From: a virus
Lineage: Duplodnaviria > Heunggongvirae > Uroviricota > Caudoviricetes
IMG/VR virus record: IMGVR_UViG_2529293038_000017
Coordinates: 1 to 64,000 of that record
Strand: one strand, 5' to 3'
Length of the DNA: 64,000 nt
This document shows, one piece after another, positions 5,573 to 39,605 of the stretch. Within the stretch, counting starts at the first letter, position 1. The number at the start of each line of letters is the position of its first letter. Position numbers and translations under genes: made by a program. The notes beneath the pieces were generated by a model. That model saw only the letters and a program-made list of their open reading frames with translations, made no database searches and was not told the origin of the DNA.

Positions 5573-8500
5573 TTATGCGTATTGTTGGATGACGGCCAGA
5601 ACGTCCGCCACGTTGTGTTTTGTCTCGATAATCCACCAGTTACCCGGGAAATCGCTGTTCTTCGCCTTCGCTGGCAGCCAGCGAGCGCCGAATTTCGCCT
5701 TGATTGCGTCTTTCGCACGGAAAAGAACGCCTTTCATGCCTGAGGCTTCCTGAAGCCCAAATACCTCGCCAGCGGCGAATTTTGGTGCGTACATCATCTT
5801 CAGGTCGGCGGTGGATACGCGATAATTCAGACCAAGAGACTGAGCTATGCTGGTGGCATCACCCTGTATTGATGATAACTCTTCTTGTTTCTCGTTTCTG
5901 GCGGCAATCTCTTCCTCCGTGATGTTGCCAAGGGCCAGGTTTATCCGATCAGCGTCGGCCTGTTTCTCTTCATCGGTGCGCCCGGCAAGAACCGTGTTAA
6001 TTCTCTGCAATATCTCCACATGATTCTTGCGCATGCTGAGCAATTCCGGCGTAACCTCGTTAAGATCCACCAGCCCAAGGATGGCAAGGTCGGAAAACAT
6101 TGATACCAGGTTGTAGGTCATGCGATAGCTGAGTTGACCATAGGCTGATGGCAACTGCACCGCATCCATTTTATAGGCATCCATAAATTTAGAGCCGTCG
6201 TTTACGACATCCGCAATTGCCGGTGTGATTTTTCCTGTGGTGGCGGCCTCCCTGATTGCTGTTACCCACGATTGAGTCAGCGCGGAAACTGCATGATTCA
6301 GATTGGCTTTGCGTTCTGCTGCAATGCGCGCGCTTGCAGCGTCCATTGACTGTTTGATCTCGTCTTTATTGCTGTAAATGCCAATGGTGCCAAACTGTGC
6401 TGTGGTGATCTCATAATCTGACGCCCGGAACTCATTGGTACCGAAAATAGCATTGGTGACTTCAAGTTCAGAATCCCCGTTACGAGTAGCCCCCTGGCTT
6501 GTTTTTTCCGGCATTCTGGCGATCGCATCCGCTATTTTCTCCTGAATTGCTTCAGGGGATAGCGTATCTCCGTATGACGCGATTACATCGCCATAATTGG
6601 AGCCAAACAGTTCAACCAGGAATGTTTCTGCCGAACGGATCTGGCGGTTATTCCCTTCCGACATCATACCAAGCACCCATTTTGCAATTGACGACTTCAG
6701 CGCGCCGTCACGGCGATCCGGGTAAACCGCATGCTTCAGTGGGTCCGTATAGGTACCAACAAAATCGATGCTATAGCCTGACTCTGTAGTCTGAACGCCG
6801 TATGAGTCAGTGATTTTGATCATGCCGCGCTGCTGGAAACGGTAGAAATCGTCACAGGAAATGATGTCGTTAATCCCGGCGATGGAGACGCCACCACTGA
6901 TTTTCTGCATAACAGCATCTTCATCGGGAGTTACATCAACCTGTTTATCCAGCGTCTTCACATCCCAGTTACCCGATTTGGTGCCTTTGAAGGTAAAGAT
7001 GATCTCCACGTCTGCGCGCTGGCTGTCGAAGTCCAGCGACTTAATGCGAACGATATCACCGGCACAATCGTAGTATTGGCCTACACGCCATGAGCGATCG
7101 CCGATAACAAGGAACTCATTCGCATGGTTAACCAGATCAGGATCAACATCCAGAATGCCTTTATTTATTGCATCCTCCACCAGCGGGCGCAGGCGTTTGA
7201 TATCCGTCGCGGCCTTCTGAGTACGGTTCAATAATTTCTCATAGCGGGAGATGGCTTGAGAGATATTAGCCTTGCGCTGAATGGCGCTTTTCAACGACGC
7301 GCGATACTGTGCTAACAACGTACGGTCTGTGTGATGGACGCTACCCCAGCGGGCTTTCCAGTCTGCGTTATCAGCTGCTTTGGCCATTACCGCCTGTTTG
7401 AATTTAGCTACCTCGGCGGTGGTCTTTTCAAGTTCCGCTTTGTTTCGCTCTAATTCAGCGGTAAGTACCTCCACATCCTCGCCAGCTGCGTGCTGCGCCT
7501 TGATGTAGTTCTGAAGGTCGATAGTAGCCTGTTCTTTCTGGCGAGCGCGTTGCGCGGCTTTCGCCTTATCCATTTGAACCTGCATCATTGCCAGACGTTC
7601 GCCATCATCCTTAGCGGTATACATCTGCATTTCGATCATATCGTTGGCGTCGGCGTTCTCCATTTCTGACTTATCTGAACGGAGGATATCGGAGATCCAG
7701 CCTGCTTTACGCTTCAGCGTCTTCAGTCGGTATTCATCGAAAGAACCCTTGCCGCAGTAGTAATGAACGCGAACGCTTGCACGGTTGGAGCCAACTCGGG
7801 CACCGCGACCGTTACGCTGTGCGATACTGGCTGGTGTCCATGGCAACGTCAGATGATGGATGTCAGTCGTTCCTCGATGCAGGTTGATACCCACCTCTGC
7901 CTTTTTGTTGCAGATGATGATCGGAGTCCGGCCCTCCTGGAAGTCTGCTGCAATCTTTTCCAGACCGCCCAACGACATTTCATTTTGCTGCGCGATATAG
8001 GCGTCATACAGAGCCATTTGCTCGTTGTATTTCGCTATCTGTGCATCTGTTGGTTCATCAGGTAACTCTTTCGGCGGTTTAACCGCTTTCAGTTTCTTAC
8101 CGGTTTTACCTGCCTCGGCAACCGTCTGAGCATTCAGGATCCCCACCTTTGAAGGTTCAAGGTTAAGAGCATTGCAGATAATGCGCTTGAGCTTCTGGTG
8201 CTGCGTTTTTTCGTCCGTGAAGATGATTTGCTTACCTTCCGGGAAAAACTCCTTCAGCGTGGCGATCAGCTTCGCGTATTTGGGTGTAACGGGGTGAGTT
8301 ACGGTCTGTTCGTCAATGCCAAACCTGGCCAGGCGCTTATTCACTTCCTGCTCGAACGCTTCCGGAACCTGCAACTGAATAAACTCGCCCTTATCTATCA
8401 GGGAGTATTGCGATTGCTGCGTGATTGAATCATCACTGTCGTCGTCTTCGCTGGTGGCTTGTTTAGGCAAACTGTCCGCCAGCTGCTGCACCGCATCGGC

Positions 8501-26369: not shown

Positions 26370-26443
26370 AAGTTCCCTCCTACGTTGTCAGGAGGTAATG
26401 GTATGCAAAGTAACTTCTCAACCGGTTATGTTGCATAAGAGAC

Positions 26444-26707: not shown

Positions 26708-27142
26708 TTTTTACCTATACAACAGTAAGTTGAACAACATCTGAGAACGGTATGCACTTTGTGATTTCCACACACACTGGTTTTGTTAATTAAAACCTGT
26801 AGCTTGCAATAAATAACGATAGTGGGCAGAAAATATGCTAATAGGCTATGTACGCATATAGACAAATGAACAAAACACAGCTATGCAGTGAAAAGCACTT
26901 GAAAGCGCAGGATGTGAGCTAATTTTTGCGAATAAGGCGAGCAGCAAAAAGGCTGGGCACCCTGGGTTAAAAAAGGTTCTGCGTATGCTTTCCAGAGGTG
27001 ATACCCTAGTCTCGGGCTAGGGACAACATTTCGAGGACAGTTTTCATTAGCGGTCAGCAGGCGCTAGATACATCGAATTGATGTGCCGCGCGATAAATGT
27101 ACCTATTCTATCAAGATAAATTACACCGACGCGGCATTAGAA

Positions 27143-27712
27143 TTACAGCTCAGATTGAGTTTGGCGCTTCTCTACAGGATGATAACGATAAATCGTCGAT
27201 ACACCGATATCGTAAATAATTGCCAACTGTTTCCTGCTGTAGCCATTTTCGATCAACCTCGCTATTTGCTCATGTTGTTCTTTTGTCAACTTCGGGCGAC
27301 GTCCGCCAATGCGTCCCTGTTCGCGTGCAGCTGCCAGTCCGGCCAGTGTTCTCTCAACAATTAATTCACGTTCCATTTCTGCTAAAGCCCCCATGACGTG
27401 AAAAAAGAAACGCCCCATGGGTGTTGATGTGTCAATACTGTCTGTCAGACTACGGAAATTAACACCTTTTTCCCGCAACTCCTCTATAAGCGTGATAAGG
27501 TGTTTCATACTTCTGCCAAGCCTATCCAGCTTCCAGACAACCAGCGTATCTCCTTCTGATAACGTTCTGAGCAGCTTTTTCAAGCCTGGTCTGGCTGACT
27601 TTGTTCCGCTTATTTTATCTTCAAAAATCAGTTCACATCCTGCGCAGTTCAGTGCATTTCTTTGTAAATCTGTGTTTTGGTCATTTGTTGACACACGAAT
27701 GTAGCCAATTTG
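27143..27712 (-). CDS. cin: Cin serine DNA invertase (about 186 aa)
   Basis: MQIGYIRVSTNDQNTDLQ... resolvase/invertase N-terminal catalytic motif and C-terminal HTH (GYSRKQLAIIYDIGVSTIYRY). Adjacent to the invertible segment. Confidence 0.9.
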   Translation of the reverse strand, partial: QIGYIRVSTNDQNTDLQRNALNCAGCELIFEDKISGTKSARPGLKKLLRTLSEGDTLVVWKLDRLGRSMKHLITLIEELREKGVNFRSLTDSIDTSTPMGRFFFHVMGALAEMERELIVERTLAGLAAAREQGRIGGRRPKLTKEQHEQIARLIENGYSRKQLAIIYDIGVSTIYRYHPVEKRQTQSEL

Positions 27713-27769
27713 CATGAAAAACAACCTCTTTGTTTAGTTAAAAATACATCGTTGGTATAGGTAGGGATT

Positions 27770-27795
27770 AAGACTAAAACGTTGGTTTGGGAGAA
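27770..27795. promoter_or_regulatory. cix-like recombination site (AAGACTAAAACG-TT-GGTTTGGGAGAA)
   Basis: Resembles the Gin/Cin crossover-site pattern (AAACC-NN-GGTTT core); sits at the junction where the Sv and Sv' reading frames diverge. Confidence 0.55.
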
Positions 27796-28284
27796 GGCTC
27801 TGCATTACCTGTTGGTGTCCCTGTTCCGTGGCCTTCAGCCACTCCGCCAACAGGCTGGCTGAAATGCAACGGTGCGGCTTTTTCTGCTGAAGAATACCCG
27901 GAACTGGCAAAGGCTTACCCGACAAATAAATTGCCTGATTTACGTGGTGAGTTCATTCGTGGCTGGGATGACGGGCGCGGGATTGATCCAGGTCGCTCTA
28001 TTTTAAGCGAGCAAGGATATGCAACGGAGGATCATGCTCACGGATTACCGTCAAAATCAACCGTAGCAACTGACAGCTCAATTAATTTCTACTTTGACGA
28101 GGCATGGGCTACTAGTGGTAATACGGGAGTTATCAGATGGGGGAACACAAGCGATGCAGGATTGCCAGCCCCTAATTATGGAACTTTTAAAACATATAAA
28201 CAGTCCGTAGCTAATTTAGGTACTGCTGGCTTAGAAACCCGCCCTCGTAATATTGCATTTAATTATATTGTGAGGGCGGATTAA
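27787..28284 (+). CDS. Alternative tail-fibre variable C-terminal segment (Sv'-like, 165 codons), silent in this orientation
   Basis: Open frame beginning at the cix site with no independent start signal. N-terminal 33 residues nearly identical to an internal stretch of the S protein. Confidence 0.6.
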   Translation: MGEGSALPVGVPVPWPSATPPTGWLKCNGAAFSAEEYPELAKAYPTNKLPDLRGEFIRGWDDGRGIDPGRSILSEQGYATEDHAHGLPSKSTVATDSSINFYFDEAWATSGNTGVIRWGNTSDAGLPAPNYGTFKTYKQSVANLGTAGLETRPRNIAFNYIVRAD

Positions 28285-28289
28285 TTATA

Positions 28290-28901
28290 TCAACTGGCTG
28301 TAGAAAGTTGTTTTTCAGGCCAGTTGAGATCTGGTGCCGTGGTTAAATCCATCGCGTTCAGCTCGTCTATATAATCTAGCACGGAGTTAAGCTGCGTGGT
28401 TTCTGCCTGCGTCAACTTCCGTCCAGCCCGTAATTTCAACTGAATCAGACTAATGGAATCCATCGCAGTATCAATCAATGACTGACGTTTTGTTTCTGCT
28501 GCCTCTACAGCTGCACTATGTTGAGCCTCAGTATCAACCACCCATTTCTCTCCATCCCATTTGTCGTATGGTGTTAGCGGGGCGATAGTGGTTGTATTTT
28601 CCGGATAGTCACCCAACACCGTGATTTCTTCGGGATTCCCTGTGTCAATGCTATAGACAGTTTCGCCACGATGATCTGGCACATACTCCCATGAACTTAA
28701 ATCCTCTGAACGGAGAATCGCATAACCTGCTTTATGTGAGCCTGGAGCATCCAAACAAGAATGTGCCGGAATACCAACGCCAACAGCAAGATATTCAGTT
28801 GATGCAGAAATATATTCCCGATTACCACCATCATAGTTATAAACGATAATGTTTCCTGCCTGTATGGCTATAAGTTCGCTATTTAATATCGCATTATCCA
28901 T
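28290..28901 (-). CDS. U: Tail-fibre assembly chaperone (U/Tfa-like, 203 aa)
   Basis: Directly downstream of S; C-terminal region resembles Tfa-family chaperones. Confidence 0.7.
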   Translation of the reverse strand: MDNAILNSELIAIQAGNIIVYNYDGGNREYISASTEYLAVGVGIPAHSCLDAPGSHKAGYAILRSEDLSSWEYVPDHRGETVYSIDTGNPEEITVLGDYPENTTTIAPLTPYDKWDGEKWVVDTEAQHSAAVEAAETKRQSLIDTAMDSISLIQLKLRAGRKLTQAETTQLNSVLDYIDELNAMDLTTAPDLNWPEKQLSTAS

Positions 28902-30580
28902 TATGCTGCTCTCACAATATAATTGAAGGCAATGTTACGTGGGCGGGTTTCATTCCCCCCAGATAACTCCGTTCTGTATTGACTGGTAAATTTACCATTA
29001 ATCGCTCCTTCTTGGACGGCGTTATCTGTCGACAACAGGCTATCCCCCCCTCTGTCATTTGGCACCAATACCGTGTTATCCCACGCGTCCCATGACCGAA
29101 TATTATGATAATGACTTCCTGTTAACCACCCCTGTATGCTTAAGATGACCCTTCCCGCATCCACACCTCGCCCATCATCCCAACCACGGATAAACTCACC
29201 GCGTAAATCAGGTAATTTTAACGTTGGGTAAACCTTTGCCAGATTTGGGTACTTTTCAGAAGAAAATGCTGCTCCGTTACATTTCAGCCACCCCGTTGGT
29301 GGTGTGGCTGAGGGCCATGGAACAGGTACACCAACGGGCAGCGCCGAGCCTTCCCCTAAACCAAGGTAATTAAGAACGCTCTGAATACTGGGCTTACTAA
29401 GAATTGCACGTCCAACACTTGTCAGTGCAGTTAACGCGGCACGATCAACCCCTGTGAAATAAGGGAGTTTATCTGCTGCGGTAGCTAGTGCCGCTAGAGC
29501 AGTGAGCGTAGCGTCTGCCGCTTGCTTTCCATTAGCCAAATCATATGCAGCCTTGACAGCTTTCGGTGTAGCGGCCAGCACTTCAGACGTGCTGTTAGTG
29601 GCACTACTGAGCTGAGTGATGCCTTTCGCTGTCAATGAAGCTGTTGGCACACCAGTAATCTGATTCCAGGGATGTGTATGACTGGATGGTGCCTTTCCGG
29701 CTGCTAGATCGTATGCAGCTTTAACCGCTTTTGGCGTTGCAGCTAATGTTTCAGAAGTGCTGTTGGTGTCGCTACTGAGCTGAACTATCCCTTTTTGTGT
29801 CGTGGTTGCATCCTGGGCTGTATACTTCCCGTTAGCCAGGTCATATGCAGCCTTGACAGCTTTCGGTGTGGCGGCCAGCACTTCAGACGTGCTGTTAGTG
29901 GCACTACTGAGCTGAACTAATCCCTTTTGCGTTGTGCTTGCATCCTGCGCCGTATACTTGCTTTTCGCCAGATCGTAGGCTTTTTTAACTGCCAGCGAAC
30001 TCGCAGCAACATCACTTCTGGTACTGGTTACAGAGTCTGAAATATCAATGCCGATCGTGCGGTTGATACGCTCGGATGTATCAATCATCTCTTGAGTAAT
30101 GGTAGATACGCCAGCAGGGATATTCACCGTACAAACCAGCAGTTCCCCATCACCTAACTGATATGAATCGGTATAGGTTCTGGCAACAAATTCAGCTGCA
30201 TGAATATGTGACGCGGTATTCACCTGATAGGTATCTTCTCCAAGAAGGTATCTTCCCTTCAGCACAATTGCATATTTCTTGCCTGCGTTAAGTGCAAGAG
30301 AGATATCCTTACGATGCTGAATAGTTACCTGGTAGAATTCACCAATATCCACTGACGCCGCGCCAGCGGTTTTATCTCCATCCACTGAGGTGATTAACAG
30401 GTTCATCCCACCGCCAGGCTTAGGCAAGAAACCAGCATAAAATCCCGGGTCAACAATTCCCCTGAATTTTCGGTTTAGAGCGGCTGACAGATATGGTTCG
30501 TGGTATTGCACATCAGCCACCAGAGCCAACGACTCGGGTGATGGGTAAGTAACCGATGTAACAACTGTAACGTCATTCAT
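28901..30580 (-). CDS. S: Tail fibre protein S (about 559 aa)
   Basis: ATG at 30580 with AAGGA Shine-Dalgarno, 12 bp after the R stop. Internal 45-aa tandem repeats; C-terminal part lies inside the invertible segment. Confidence 0.75.
   Translation of the reverse strand: MNDVTVVTSVTYPSPESLALVADVQYHEPYLSAALNRKFRGIVDPGFYAGFLPKPGGGMNLLITSVDGDKTAGAASVDIGEFYQVTIQHRKDISLALNAGKKYAIVLKGRYLLGEDTYQVNTASHIHAAEFVARTYTDSYQLGDGELLVCTVNIPAGVSTITQEMIDTSERINRTIGIDISDSVTSTRSDVAASSLAVKKAYDLAKSKYTAQDASTTQKGLVQLSSATNSTSEVLAATPKAVKAAYDLANGKYTAQDATTTQKGIVQLSSDTNSTSETLAATPKAVKAAYDLAAGKAPSSHTHPWNQITGVPTASLTAKGITQLSSATNSTSEVLAATPKAVKAAYDLANGKQAADATLTALAALATAADKLPYFTGVDRAALTALTSVGRAILSKPSIQSVLNYLGLGEGSALPVGVPVPWPSATPPTGWLKCNGAAFSSEKYPNLAKVYPTLKLPDLRGEFIRGWDDGRGVDAGRVILSIQGWLTGSHYHNIRSWDAWDNTVLVPNDRGGDSLLSTDNAVQEGAINGKFTSQYRTELSGGNETRPRNIAFNYIVRAA
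29341..29366. promoter_or_regulatory. cix-like recombination site inside S (TTCCCCTAAACC-AA-GGTAATTAAGAA)
   Basis: Inverted relative to the site at 27770-27795; marks the constant/variable junction of S. Confidence 0.5.
29510..29990. repeat. Tandem repeats of about 150 bp within the tail-fibre gene (three copies)
   Basis: Identical 80-bp cores at 29541-29620 and 29841-29920, with a diverged middle copy. Encode the repeated peptide TAQDA.TTQKG.VQLSS.TNSTSE.LAATPKAVKAAYDLA. Confidence 0.8.
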
Positions 30581-30591
30581 CAAGCATATCC

Positions 30592-31026
30592 TTATGCTGT
30601 AGTCGAGTTTATGGCCATAACTGCGGTATATGTTTTGCCCACATACAGCGAGTCTTCCTGGACACAAATAATGGCGATTGGCTTATTCTCGTTATCCAGA
30701 ACAACCAGAGTGTTGAATGGGTAGTTTTTCCCTTCCTGCAACTGACTTTGATCAAGGTCCATTCGGACAGTAATTATCCCGCCTGAGTAGGTTGGGACGA
30801 GGTTGATGGTGCAAAATTGACTGGTCAGTTCTGCCAGATCGAAAGCCTTTGGCAGTTCTCCAATCTCATAAGTGCCATCTCCTTTCTTAGTAACCAGTGA
30901 ACTGGTACCGAAAACGGCCTTGCTGATTAAAAATCGAGAGCCTTTGTTAATGGACGATTCAGCGCGCCGCTGATAGTAATAGTCCAACAACTGACTCTTA
31001 TAGAGGTTTGTTGAGACGTCAGACAT
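30592..31026 (-). CDS. R: Tail-fibre/baseplate-associated protein (R-like, 144 aa)
   Basis: Immediately upstream of S in the same operon. Confidence 0.55.
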   Translation of the reverse strand: MSDVSTNLYKSQLLDYYYQRRAESSINKGSRFLISKAVFGTSSLVTKKGDGTYEIGELPKAFDLAELTSQFCTINLVPTYSGGIITVRMDLDQSQLQEGKNYPFNTLVVLDNENKPIAIICVQEDSLYVGKTYTAVMAINSTTA

Positions 31027-31104
31027 GATTTTCCCTAATCAATGTTGTGAAGCCTCATTGTAAGATAAGTAACTTGTCACCCCGCCCTGCGGACGGGGTG
31101 ATTG

Positions 31105-39014: not shown

Positions 39015-39605
<591 letters not shown>

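What the first reader, a model, noticed from the sequence alone, without database searches (positions are those of the whole stretch)
27770..29366. Unusually compact invertible tail-fibre segment with diverged inverted repeats and a single chaperone gene
cix-like sites at 27770-27795 and 29341-29366 bracket about 1.6 kb. I recall the P1 C-segment as about 4.2 kb with 0.6-kb inverted repeats and two chaperone genes (U and U'). Here the inverted flanks are only about 80% identical beyond the shared peptide LGEGSALPVGVPVPWPSATPPTGWLKCNGAAFS, and the alternative fibre tip (Sv', 27787..28284) ends 5 bp from the stop of the only chaperone gene. After inversion that chaperone would be convergent with S. 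This raises the question of whether both fibre variants use one chaperone and whether the switch is still active.
Basis: partly seen in the sequence, partly recalled or inferred. Interest (0 to 1): 0.45.

Follow-up and report, generated by a model that had tools for sequence, protein, structure and literature searches.

The report
Minimal two-tip tail-fibre inversion switch
This is a small DNA-flipping switch of a known type (Min of plasmid p15B, Pin of prophage e14) on a P1-like phage-plasmid; it swaps the tip of the tail fibre between two versions, it is very probably still working, and having only one helper (chaperone) gene is normal for its family.

Summary
A serine invertase gene (27143-27715, -) sits beside a 1.58-kb segment bounded by two inverted 26-bp crossover sites. 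The left site is 27770-27795. The right site is 29351-29376, not 29341-29366 as reported. The segment holds a silent fibre tip Sv' (+), one chaperone gene U (-) and the expressed tip Sv (-). Sv' ends 5 bp from the U stop codon.

The interpretation needs correcting. This is not a shrunken P1 C-segment. It is a Min/Pin-type module that replaced Cin and the C-segment, and a dead cin 5' stub remains at 26835-27011. The invertase is 82% identical to e14 PinE, U is 78% identical to TfaE, and Sv' is 87% identical to StfE.

Related P1-like plasmids carry 2 to at least 9 tip cassettes and always one U. The core Sv-U -><- Sv' is conserved. The window is the minimal two-cassette form, and at least two other assemblies share it.

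The predicted inverted product, Sc-Sv' of 572 aa, exists residue-for-residue in public assemblies, with U convergent. Among complete E. coli genomes, 22 carry the Sc-Sv junction and 20 carry Sc-Sv'. The switch is therefore very likely active.

TfaE-like chaperones follow 16 different tip types, so one generalist chaperone is plausible. How U is expressed in the Sv' state remains unresolved.

The parts
26835..27011 (+). Dead 5' stub of a P1-type cin gene (59 codons, two in-frame stops). It marks the left edge of the substitution.
   Evidence: It is 83% aa identical to P1 Cin residues 1-59. Its translation is MLIGYVRI*TNEQNTAMQ*K.... P1 collinearity at 90.7% ends at 27011.
27143..27715 (-). Serine DNA invertase of Min/Pin type, 190 aa. 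It is transcribed away from the invertible segment.
   Evidence: Pfam Resolvase N-terminal domain (2e-51) plus HTH_7. It is 82% identical to e14 PinE and 74% to P1 Cin. It is identical to the invertase of plasmids whose cassettes are visibly rearranged.
27626..27697 (-). Homologue of the P1 recombinational (Fis) enhancer, inside the 5' part of the invertase gene.
   Evidence: 58 of 72 nt match the annotated P1 enhancer. Its function is inferred, not tested.
27770..27795 (-). Left crossover site, with core TT/AA at 27782-27783.
   Evidence: The stretch 27782-27797, TTGGTTTGGGAGAAGG, is identical to the e14 P-segment repeat shown experimentally to be inverted by Pin enzymes (PMC12529663).
27784..28284 (+). 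Sv', the silent alternative fibre tip (cassette type T2). It has a collar domain, a variable knob and the shared C-terminus.
   Evidence: Pfam Collar 1e-15. It is 87% identical to the variable part of e14 StfE. PDB sequence matches to T4 gp37 and gp12 tips. pN/pS is about 0.1.
28290..28901 (-). U, the only tail-fibre assembly chaperone (TfaE-like, 203 aa). Its ATG overlaps the S stop codon (TAATG).
   Evidence: Pfam Caudo_TAP 3e-30, and Caudo_TAP_N in the precomputed hits. It is 78% identical to e14 TfaE.
28901..29363 (-). Sv, the currently expressed fibre tip (cassette type T1).
   Evidence: It is the tip directly upstream of U in 27 surveyed loci.
29351..29376 (+). Right crossover site, with core AA at 29363-29364.
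   Evidence: The same Sc-side half-site, GGTAATTAAGAA, is joined to different cassette half-sites in sibling plasmids.
29364..30580 (-). Sc, the constant N-terminal part of tail-fibre gene S. It contains three 132-nt repeats.
   Evidence: Pfam Phage_fiber_2 repeats. It is 96% identical to P1 from 29834 onward.
30592..31026 (-). R, the first gene of the R-S-U late operon.
   Evidence: Pfam Phage_P1_tail_fiber_R.
31057..31075 (-). P1-type late promoter LPs (AAGTTACTT N4 TACAAT), which drives R-S-U.
   Evidence: It is an exact match to the motif taken from the annotated P1 LPs and LPdar promoters.
28234..28285 (.). Inner inverted repeat. Its partner is 28900-28951. Both arms encode the shared tip C-terminus ETRPRNIAFNYIVRA.
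   Evidence: 52 nt, 85%. The motif is shared by all the 20-odd intact cassette types.

Best explanation
The region is a working, two-state, site-specific inversion switch of the Min/Pin branch of the serine DNA-invertase family. It is carried by a P1-like phage-plasmid.

How it works:
- The invertase binds the two inverted 26-bp sites, which share the same AA core.
- Together with an enhancer in the 5' part of its own gene, it flips the 1581-bp segment.
- In the state seen here, the late promoter LPs transcribes R, then S (Sc fused to tip Sv), then the translationally coupled chaperone U.
- In the other state, Sc is fused in frame to tip Sv', giving a 572-aa fibre with a different receptor-binding knob. 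U then lies on the opposite strand, convergent with S.

The single TfaE-like chaperone is a generalist. It serves both tips, probably through the C-terminal peptide (RPRNIAFNYIVRA) that all tips of this family share.

The element is the minimal, two-cassette form of the p15B-type Min array. The module entered a P1-like backbone by replacing Cin and the C-segment.

Shown here: the anatomy, the in-frame fusion, the homologies, and the existence of both states in nature.
Inferred: enhancer function, chaperone sharing, and how U is expressed in the Sv' state.
For: Anatomy and domains.

Family assignment:
- The invertase is 82% identical to PinE and 74% to Cin. U is 78% identical to TfaE. Sv' is 87% identical to StfE.
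- The invertase gene reads away from the segment, as pinE does in e14. P1 cin reads toward its segment.
- The left-site repeat is identical to the e14 repeat that Pin enzymes invert experimentally.

Substitution: P1 collinearity breaks at 27011 and resumes at 29834, with a cin stub left behind.

Activity:
- The exact 572-aa Sc-Sv' fusion is in public data (WP_096836584.1). It is on 4 contigs, each with U convergent at 5 bp.
- The exact 559-aa Sc-Sv protein is carried by at least 3 contigs (a fourth returned place did not translate to the query).
- Among 5426 complete E. coli genomes, 22 carry the Sc|Sv junction and 20 carry Sc|Sv'.
- Two plasmids from isolates labelled as the same strain have equal length and an invertase identical to the window's. 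Their six cassettes are in different order and orientation, with half-sites re-assorted at the AA core.

Family rule: arrays of 2 to at least 9 cassettes always have one U, with the core Sv-U -><- Sv' conserved and a gap of 5 bp in 19 cases and 6 bp in 13.

Generalist chaperone:
- 16 tip types are directly followed by a TfaE-like chaperone somewhere. This includes the Sv' type in e14 and in loci L055, L061 and L071.
- Chaperones that follow unrelated tips are up to 96-98% identical.
- All the 20-odd intact tip types share the C-terminal motif.

Sv' is under purifying selection, with pN/pS about 0.1.
Against: - No inversion was observed in this molecule itself. All evidence for activity is comparative.
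- No P1-type late promoter can drive U after inversion.
- The sigma-70 scan gave only one weak candidate upstream of U, inside Sv at 29242-29215, and found fewer matches than in shuffled sequence.
- In every locus surveyed, U starts inside the stop codon of the tip upstream. This suggests it normally depends on translation of that tip, which would not happen in the Sv' state.
- Chaperones covary mildly with tip type. N-domain identity is 94.5% within a tip type and 87.8% between types, so some specificity cannot be excluded.
- The enhancer match lies in coding sequence, so it could reflect protein conservation alone.
Confidence: 0.72

Rival explanations
1. The switch flips, but the Sv' state is a dead end. 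U is not transcribed from the late operon in that state, so Sc-Sv' fibres misfold and the phage is non-infectious or fibre-less. The two-cassette element would then be an ON/OFF switch, or simply a crippled deletion derivative of a larger array.
For: - U is convergent with S in the Sv' state, and no late promoter points toward it.
- The U start overlaps the upstream tip's stop codon in all 76 cases.
- Sv' is the one cassette that can never be placed upstream of U, because no crossover site lies between them.
- The prophage state puts no selection on orientation. This would explain the 22:20 split.
Against: - The Sv' cassette is intact, and this exact 165-aa protein occurs on about 980 contigs.
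- Its pN/pS is about 0.1.
- The Sv-U -><- Sv' core, with its 5-6-bp spacing, is conserved across two diverged subgroups of arrays. That is hard to explain for a useless cassette.
- The same tip type is used with a TfaE chaperone in e14 and other prophages.
Confidence: 0.17
2. The switch is frozen. The element is a relic fixed in the Sv orientation and no longer inverts, for example because two sites with diverged repeats and a nearby enhancer are insufficient.
For: - The inverted repeats are only 78% identical.
- Only one orientation is seen in the window.
- The two other two-cassette assemblies found, L003 and L089, are in the same orientation.
Against: - The invertase is intact and identical to that of plasmids with rearranged arrays.
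- Both sites have the same core. Their inner half-sites, TTCTCCCAAACC and TTCCCCTAAACC, both occur among the sites of those arrays.
- The exact Sc-Sv' fusion exists elsewhere.
- Serine invertases need only the 26-bp sites, not long homology. This last point rests on established knowledge of the Hin/Gin/Cin family, not on a tool result.
Confidence: 0.08
3. It is a shrunken derivative of the P1 Cin C-segment that lost U' and most of Sv and Sv' by deletion. This is the frame the first reader implied.
For: - The backbone is P1-like.
- The position between the lyd genes and S is the same as in P1.
Against: - The tips, chaperone and invertase are e14/Pin-like, not P1/Mu-like. No DNA similarity to P1 exists between 27012 and 29833, apart from a 70% match of the invertase gene in the opposite orientation and weak matches within the Sc repeats.
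- A separate dead cin stub is still present next to the new invertase gene.
Confidence: 0.03

Closest known systems
Min multiple-inversion system of plasmid p15B (Sandmeier, Iida, Arber 1990-1992; the papers were not readable here, so their details are from memory; a P1-like plasmid whose region is 99% identical to p15B min is described in PMC5786510)
   Same: - The same P1-like backbone position.
- An invertase identical to that of multi-cassette Min-type arrays.
- The same cassette family and the same site half-sequences.
- A single TfaE-like chaperone gene.
- The conserved core Sv-U -><- Sv'.
   Different: - There are only two crossover sites and two tips, so two states. p15B has six sites and 240 isomers (from memory).
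- Because the only alternative is Sv', this element has no alternative state in which the chaperone lies downstream of S.
Pin / P segment of cryptic prophage e14 (E. coli K-12)
   Same: - The invertase is 82% identical and oriented the same way.
- Segment size is similar, 1.58 kb here against 1.8 kb.
- The crossover repeat TTGGTTTGGGAGAAGG is identical.
- The StfE-type tip (87%) and TfaE-type chaperone (78%) are shared.
   Different: - e14 has two chaperones, tfaP and tfaE, each behind its own tip.
- In e14 the StfE-type tip is followed by tfaE. Here that tip faces the chaperone head-on, and the chaperone follows a different tip.
This is read directly from the sequence.
Cin / C-segment of phage P1 (and Gin / G-segment of Mu)
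   Same: - The same logic: a constant 5' part of S is fused to alternative 3' parts by a serine invertase with an enhancer in its gene.
- The same operon, R-S-U, under the late promoter LPs.
   Different: - P1 has a 4256-bp segment, 636-nt repeats at 98% identity, long Mu-like tips and two chaperones U/U'. Its cin reads toward the segment and overlaps cixL.
- None of these features holds here.
Phage Mu Tfa-fibre complex (North et al. 2019, Nat Microbiol; from memory, cited in PMC9881135)
   Same: The chaperone has two domains, Caudo_TAP_N plus Caudo_TAP, and is thought to bind the fibre C-terminus and start trimer folding there.
   Different: - No sequence-level PDB match was found for U.
- Binding of U to the shared C-terminal peptide is inferred, not shown.

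Membership tests
Serine DNA-invertase switch (Hin/Gin/Cin/Pin/Min, 'Din' family) | Small serine recombinase with a resolvase catalytic domain, a C-terminal HTH and the catalytic Ser near residue 10 | tested here: met
   Pfam Resolvase 2e-51 and HTH_7 3e-15. The N-terminus MQIGYIRVSTNDQ aligns with Cin and PinE.
Serine DNA-invertase switch (Hin/Gin/Cin/Pin/Min, 'Din' family) | Two 26-bp quasi-palindromic crossover sites in inverted orientation with an identical 2-bp core | tested here: met
   The sites are 27770-27795 and 29351-29376, both with core AA. They are the only two in the 64 kb.
Serine DNA-invertase switch (Hin/Gin/Cin/Pin/Min, 'Din' family) | Fis-dependent recombinational enhancer in cis | tested here: inconclusive
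   58 of 72 nt match the annotated P1 enhancer at the equivalent place in the gene. The match is in coding sequence, and Fis binding is not testable here.
Serine DNA-invertase switch (Hin/Gin/Cin/Pin/Min, 'Din' family) | The segment is actually found in both orientations | tested here: met
   This was tested across isolates, not within one culture. The exact Sc-Sv and exact Sc-Sv' proteins are both in public assemblies. The junction count is 22 versus 20 genomes. Sibling plasmids are rearranged.
p15B Min multiple-inversion array | Several (six) crossover sites giving overlapping invertible segments | tested here: not met
   Only two sites and two cassettes are present. The element is therefore a minimal relative, not a multiple-inversion array.
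p15B Min multiple-inversion array | Min-type invertase, short collar-type tip cassettes and one TfaE-like chaperone in the core Sv-U -><- Sv' | tested here: met
   The invertase is identical to that of six-site arrays. The cassettes are types T1 and T2, and the core is conserved.
P1 Cin C-segment | About 4.2-kb segment, about 0.6-kb near-perfect inverted repeats, two chaperones U and U', cin reading into cixL | tested here: not met
   P1 itself has 4256 bp, 636 nt at 98%, U plus U', and cin overlapping cixL. The window has 1581 bp, 230 nt at 78%, one chaperone and the invertase in the opposite orientation.
e14 Pin P segment | Two tip-plus-chaperone units facing each other (stfP-tfaP -><- tfaE-stfE) | tested here: not met
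   e14 has tfaP and tfaE. The window has no second chaperone.
Caudo_TAP tail-fibre assembly chaperones | Conserved Tfa C-terminal domain, with the gene immediately downstream of a fibre gene | tested here: met
   PF02413 3e-30. The ATG overlaps the S stop codon.

The most novel reading that the evidence does not exclude
In this family the chaperone is uncoupled from the fibre it serves. One generalist TfaE-like chaperone supplies all tips, including Sv', which can never be co-transcribed with it. In the Sv' state, U would then have to come from one of two sources:
- a promoter independent of the late fibre operon; or
- sister genome copies in the other orientation, acting in trans.

The second source is conceivable because no terminator-like site was found between the late R-S-U operon and the invertase gene, so late transcripts may run in the sense direction into it. 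That could trigger a burst of inversion during lytic replication and produce bursts with mixed fibres.
Probability: 0.25. Interest if true: 0.5.

Novelty: new member of a known kind. Interest (0 to 1): 0.22.

Why it matters
The finding mainly corrects a classification. P1-like phage-plasmids carry at least three different fibre-switch designs:
- the P1 C-segment;
- an e14-like segment with two chaperones;
- Min arrays with one chaperone.

This element is the simplest form of the third. With only two states, it is a clean natural test bed for two practical questions in engineering phage host range:
- Can one TfaE-type chaperone fold many unrelated tips that share a short C-terminal peptide?
- Does that chaperone need to be encoded downstream of the fibre gene?

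The finding does not reveal a new mechanism.

Tried and rejected
- **Original p15B papers.** I tried to read PMC53420, PMC206102 and PMC329034, and also the P1 genome paper PMC523184. None is held. Statements about p15B therefore rest on memory and on PMC5786510.
- **A P1-type late promoter that could drive U after inversion.** None was found in or next to the segment.
- **Sigma-70 promoter scan.** It gave 2 hits against 7 expected from shuffles, so it is uninformative.
- **A second chaperone.** tblastn gave one weak hit at 39240-39437 (E 0.004-0.05), inside a 188-aa ORF with no Pfam family. I rejected it.
- **PDB sequence search for U.** No match.
- **A chaperone sequence shared identically between different tip types.** None in this sample; the best pairs are 96-98% identical.
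- **Direct BLAST of the two strain-405 plasmids to get clean breakpoints.** The alignments bleed through the conserved cassette N-termini. I used site half-sequence bookkeeping instead.
- **A two-cassette array in the inverted state.** The phage record vB_EcoM-813R1 looked like one, but it is an e14-like two-chaperone layout. I did not find a two-cassette array in the Sv' state. The Sc-Sv' contigs either have three cassettes or end inside the array.
Full report
**1. What is in the sequence**

Reading leftward on the minus strand, the genes run as follows.
- R is at 30592-31026.
- The tail-fibre gene S is at 28901-30580 (559 aa from the ATG, MNDV...).
- A 203-aa tail-fibre assembly gene, U, is at 28290-28901. 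Its ATG overlaps the S stop codon (TAATG).
- On the plus strand, a 165-aa promoterless fibre tip, Sv', is at 27787-28284. It ends 5 bp from the U stop codon.
- A 190-aa serine recombinase gene is at 27143-27715 on the minus strand.

Pfam confirms these identities.
- The recombinase has Resolvase and HTH_7 domains.
- Both tips have Collar domains.
- U matches Caudo_TAP.
- The constant part of S has Phage_fiber_2 repeats.

The repeat finder reports a 230-nt inverted repeat of 78% complementarity at 27779-28008 / 29138-29367. It also reports an inner 52-nt repeat at 85% that encodes the shared tip C-terminus.

**2. The crossover sites**

Its minus strand reads TTCTCCCAAACC AA CGTTTTAGTCTT.
- The right site is 29351-29376 (TTCCCCTAAACC AA GGTAATTAAGAA). 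This is 10 bp to the right of the reported coordinates.
- The two sites are inverted and share the AA core. They are the only such sites in the 64 kb.
- The cores are at 27782-27783 and 29363-29364, so the segment is 1581 bp.
- Simulated inversion keeps the reading frame. It gives Sc-Sv' of 572 aa, with U now convergent to S.
- In register from the crossover, the two arms are 82% identical over the first 100 nt, although the encoded peptide there is identical. They are 75% identical over the next 125 nt and unrelated after that. The arms have therefore evolved apart at synonymous positions and are not being homogenised.

**3. It is not a reduced P1 C-segment**

The backbone is P1-like.
- a 4256-bp segment;
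- 636-nt repeats at 98%;
- both U and U';
- cin reading into cixL.

The window is collinear with P1 only up to 27011 (90.7%) and again from 29834 (95.8%). At the left breakpoint lies a dead stub of cin, 59 codons with two in-frame stops, at 26835-27011 on the plus strand.

The 2.8 kb in between is e14-like.
- The invertase is 82% identical to PinE and 74% to Cin.
- U is 78% identical to TfaE.
- Sv' is 87% identical to the variable part of StfE.
- The invertase gene points away from the segment, as pinE does.
- The stretch 27782-27797, TTGGTTTGGGAGAAGG, is identical to the e14 P-segment repeat. That repeat is inverted experimentally by PinE, PinQ and PinR (PMC12529663).

This matches what I remember of Sandmeier, Iida and Arber (1992). 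They concluded that the p15B Min region is a Pin-like substitution into a P1-like genome. I could not read those papers here.

**4. The family**

I collected 93 loci, including the window region. I mapped the invertase, the chaperone, Sc, R and every tip cassette in them.

Tip cassettes:
- There are more than 20 cassette types.
- All the intact ones share about 64 N-terminal residues (the collar) and the C-terminal motif RPRNIAFNYIVRA. Their middles are unrelated.

Min-type arrays in P1-like elements:
- They have 2 to at least 9 cassettes and always exactly one chaperone gene.
- The core Sv(T1)-U -><- Sv'(T2) is conserved. The gap between the convergent stop codons is 5 bp in 19 cases and 6 bp in 13.
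- In a second subgroup, whose chaperone is about 83% identical, the convergent cassette is type T0.
- The window, pToe51-2 (NZ_CP069092.1, L003) and AIFB01000032.1 (L089) are the minimal two-cassette form.
- PMC5786510 lists one tfaE and one pin in a plasmid region that is 99% identical to p15B min.

Other prophages, and at least one P1-like phage (vB_EcoM-813R1), use the classical e14-like layout with two chaperones.

So the single chaperone and the short diverged repeats are family traits, not oddities of this element.

**5. Is the switch active?**

I could not observe inversion in this molecule. The indirect evidence is strong.
- *Both products exist.* The simulated 572-aa Sc-Sv' protein is present, residue for residue, in public data (WP_096836584.1 and others). 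It is on four contigs, each with U convergent 5 bp away. The exact 559-aa Sc-Sv protein is carried by at least three contigs; a fourth returned place did not translate to the query.
- *Both junctions are common.* Junction-specific queries against 5426 complete E. coli genomes find Sc joined to Sv in 22 genomes and Sc joined to Sv' in 20.
- *Sibling plasmids are rearranged.* Two plasmids from isolates labelled as the same strain (405) have identical length, 96,237 bp, and an invertase identical to the window's. Their six cassettes are in different order and orientation. The cassette-side and flank-side half-sites have re-assorted at the AA core.
- *The parts are intact.* The invertase is intact. 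Both of the window's inner half-site variants occur among the sites of those active arrays. A homologue of the P1 enhancer, 58 of 72 nt, lies at 27626-27697, which is 73-145 bp from the left site.

I put the probability that this element still inverts at about 0.85.

**6. One chaperone for both tips?**

Comparative evidence favours it.
- Sixteen different tip types are directly followed by a TfaE-like chaperone somewhere. This includes the Sv' type in e14 and in L055, L061 and L071.
- Chaperones that follow unrelated tips are up to 96-98% identical.
- There is mild covariation: N-domain identity is 94.5% within a tip type and 87.8% between types.
- All intact tips share the C-terminal peptide. 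From memory of North et al. 2019 on Mu, that is where Tfa proteins act.
- Sv' looks functional: pN/pS is about 0.1, on few substitutions. This exact 165-aa protein is on about 980 contigs.

**7. The open problem**

In multi-cassette arrays, any cassette except Sv' can be brought upstream of Sv-U by two inversions, so U stays in the operon. This follows from the site layout. Sv' cannot, because no site lies between it and U. In the two-cassette window, the only alternative state therefore puts U on the wrong strand.

I found no way for U to be expressed from the late operon in that state.
- The only P1-type late promoters nearby are LPs (31057-31075) and LPdar (26398-26416). Both point leftward.
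- The sigma-70 scan is uninformative.
- U always starts inside the stop codon of the tip upstream.

Three readings remain open:
- U has an unrecognised promoter;
- U is supplied in trans by genome copies in the other orientation;
- the Sv' state is defective.

The trans reading has one supporting observation. No terminator-like site was found between the late operon and the invertase gene, and transcripts would enter that gene in the sense direction. In P1 the geometry is the opposite. This is speculation, not a result.

**8. Verdict**

- The thing itself is a new member of a long-known kind: a minimal Min/Pin-type tail-fibre switch on a P1-like phage-plasmid.
- Its supposedly unusual features are normal for that family, and it is very probably active.
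- The one question that remains open is how the chaperone is supplied in the Sv' state. It applies to the whole Min family and needs experiments.
- Interest is low to moderate.

Noticed in passing
window 26835-27011 (+): A pseudogene stub of a P1-type cin gene: 59 codons, two in-frame stops, 83% aa identity to P1 Cin. It lies next to the functional Pin-like invertase gene. It is a fossil of the replacement of Cin and the C-segment by a Min/Pin module, and the same stub is present in the related Min-type P1-like plasmid loci in which the invertase flank was captured.
   Followed up: yes
window 27143-28290 (- strand), relative to the late operon that starts at 31057-31075: No terminator-like site was found between the R-S-U late operon and the invertase gene, and both are on the same strand. 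Late transcription could therefore read in the sense direction into the invertase gene. In P1, cin is antisense to that read-through. This hints at possible late induction of inversion.
   Followed up: partly
window 29525-29956 (Sc): There are three tandem 132-nt repeats (64-77% identity) encoding Phage_fiber_2 units. Relatives differ widely in repeat number, and annotated S gene lengths in the loci examined range from 1680 to about 2900 nt. The fibre shaft length therefore also varies between otherwise near-identical plasmids.
   Followed up: partly
L097 (ON470617.2, Escherichia phage vB_EcoM-813R1) 2442-5000: This P1-like phage carries an e14-like fibre switch with a 200-aa TfaE-type chaperone (80% DNA identity to the window's U) and about 830 bp of other sequence before Sc. 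It is a third switch architecture on the same backbone. The invertase is annotated as two fragments (Hin1 and Hin2), probably because of a sequencing frameshift.
   Followed up: partly
L086, L087, L088 (contigs carrying the exact Sc-Sv' fusion): Three of the four contigs end inside or just past the Sv cassette. This is what short-read assemblers do when a repeat or a mixed-orientation segment is present. It is consistent with heterogeneity within those samples, but it is not proof.
   Followed up: no
window 39015-39581 (-): A 188-aa ORF with no Pfam family has a weak similarity (32-39% over about 55-65 aa, E 0.004-0.05) to the N-terminal part of U and TfaE. It is probably chance.
   Followed up: partly
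window 27775-27777 compared with e14 (L093 about 5615-5656): In e14, a short leader ORF (MPFACYFFIFINV...) reads from the pin side into the invertible segment. It gives the StfE/StfE2 proteins reported to block phage T2 adsorption (PMC12529663). In the window that frame is closed by a TAA three codons before the crossover, so the invertase-proximal cassette has no such leader.
   Followed up: partly
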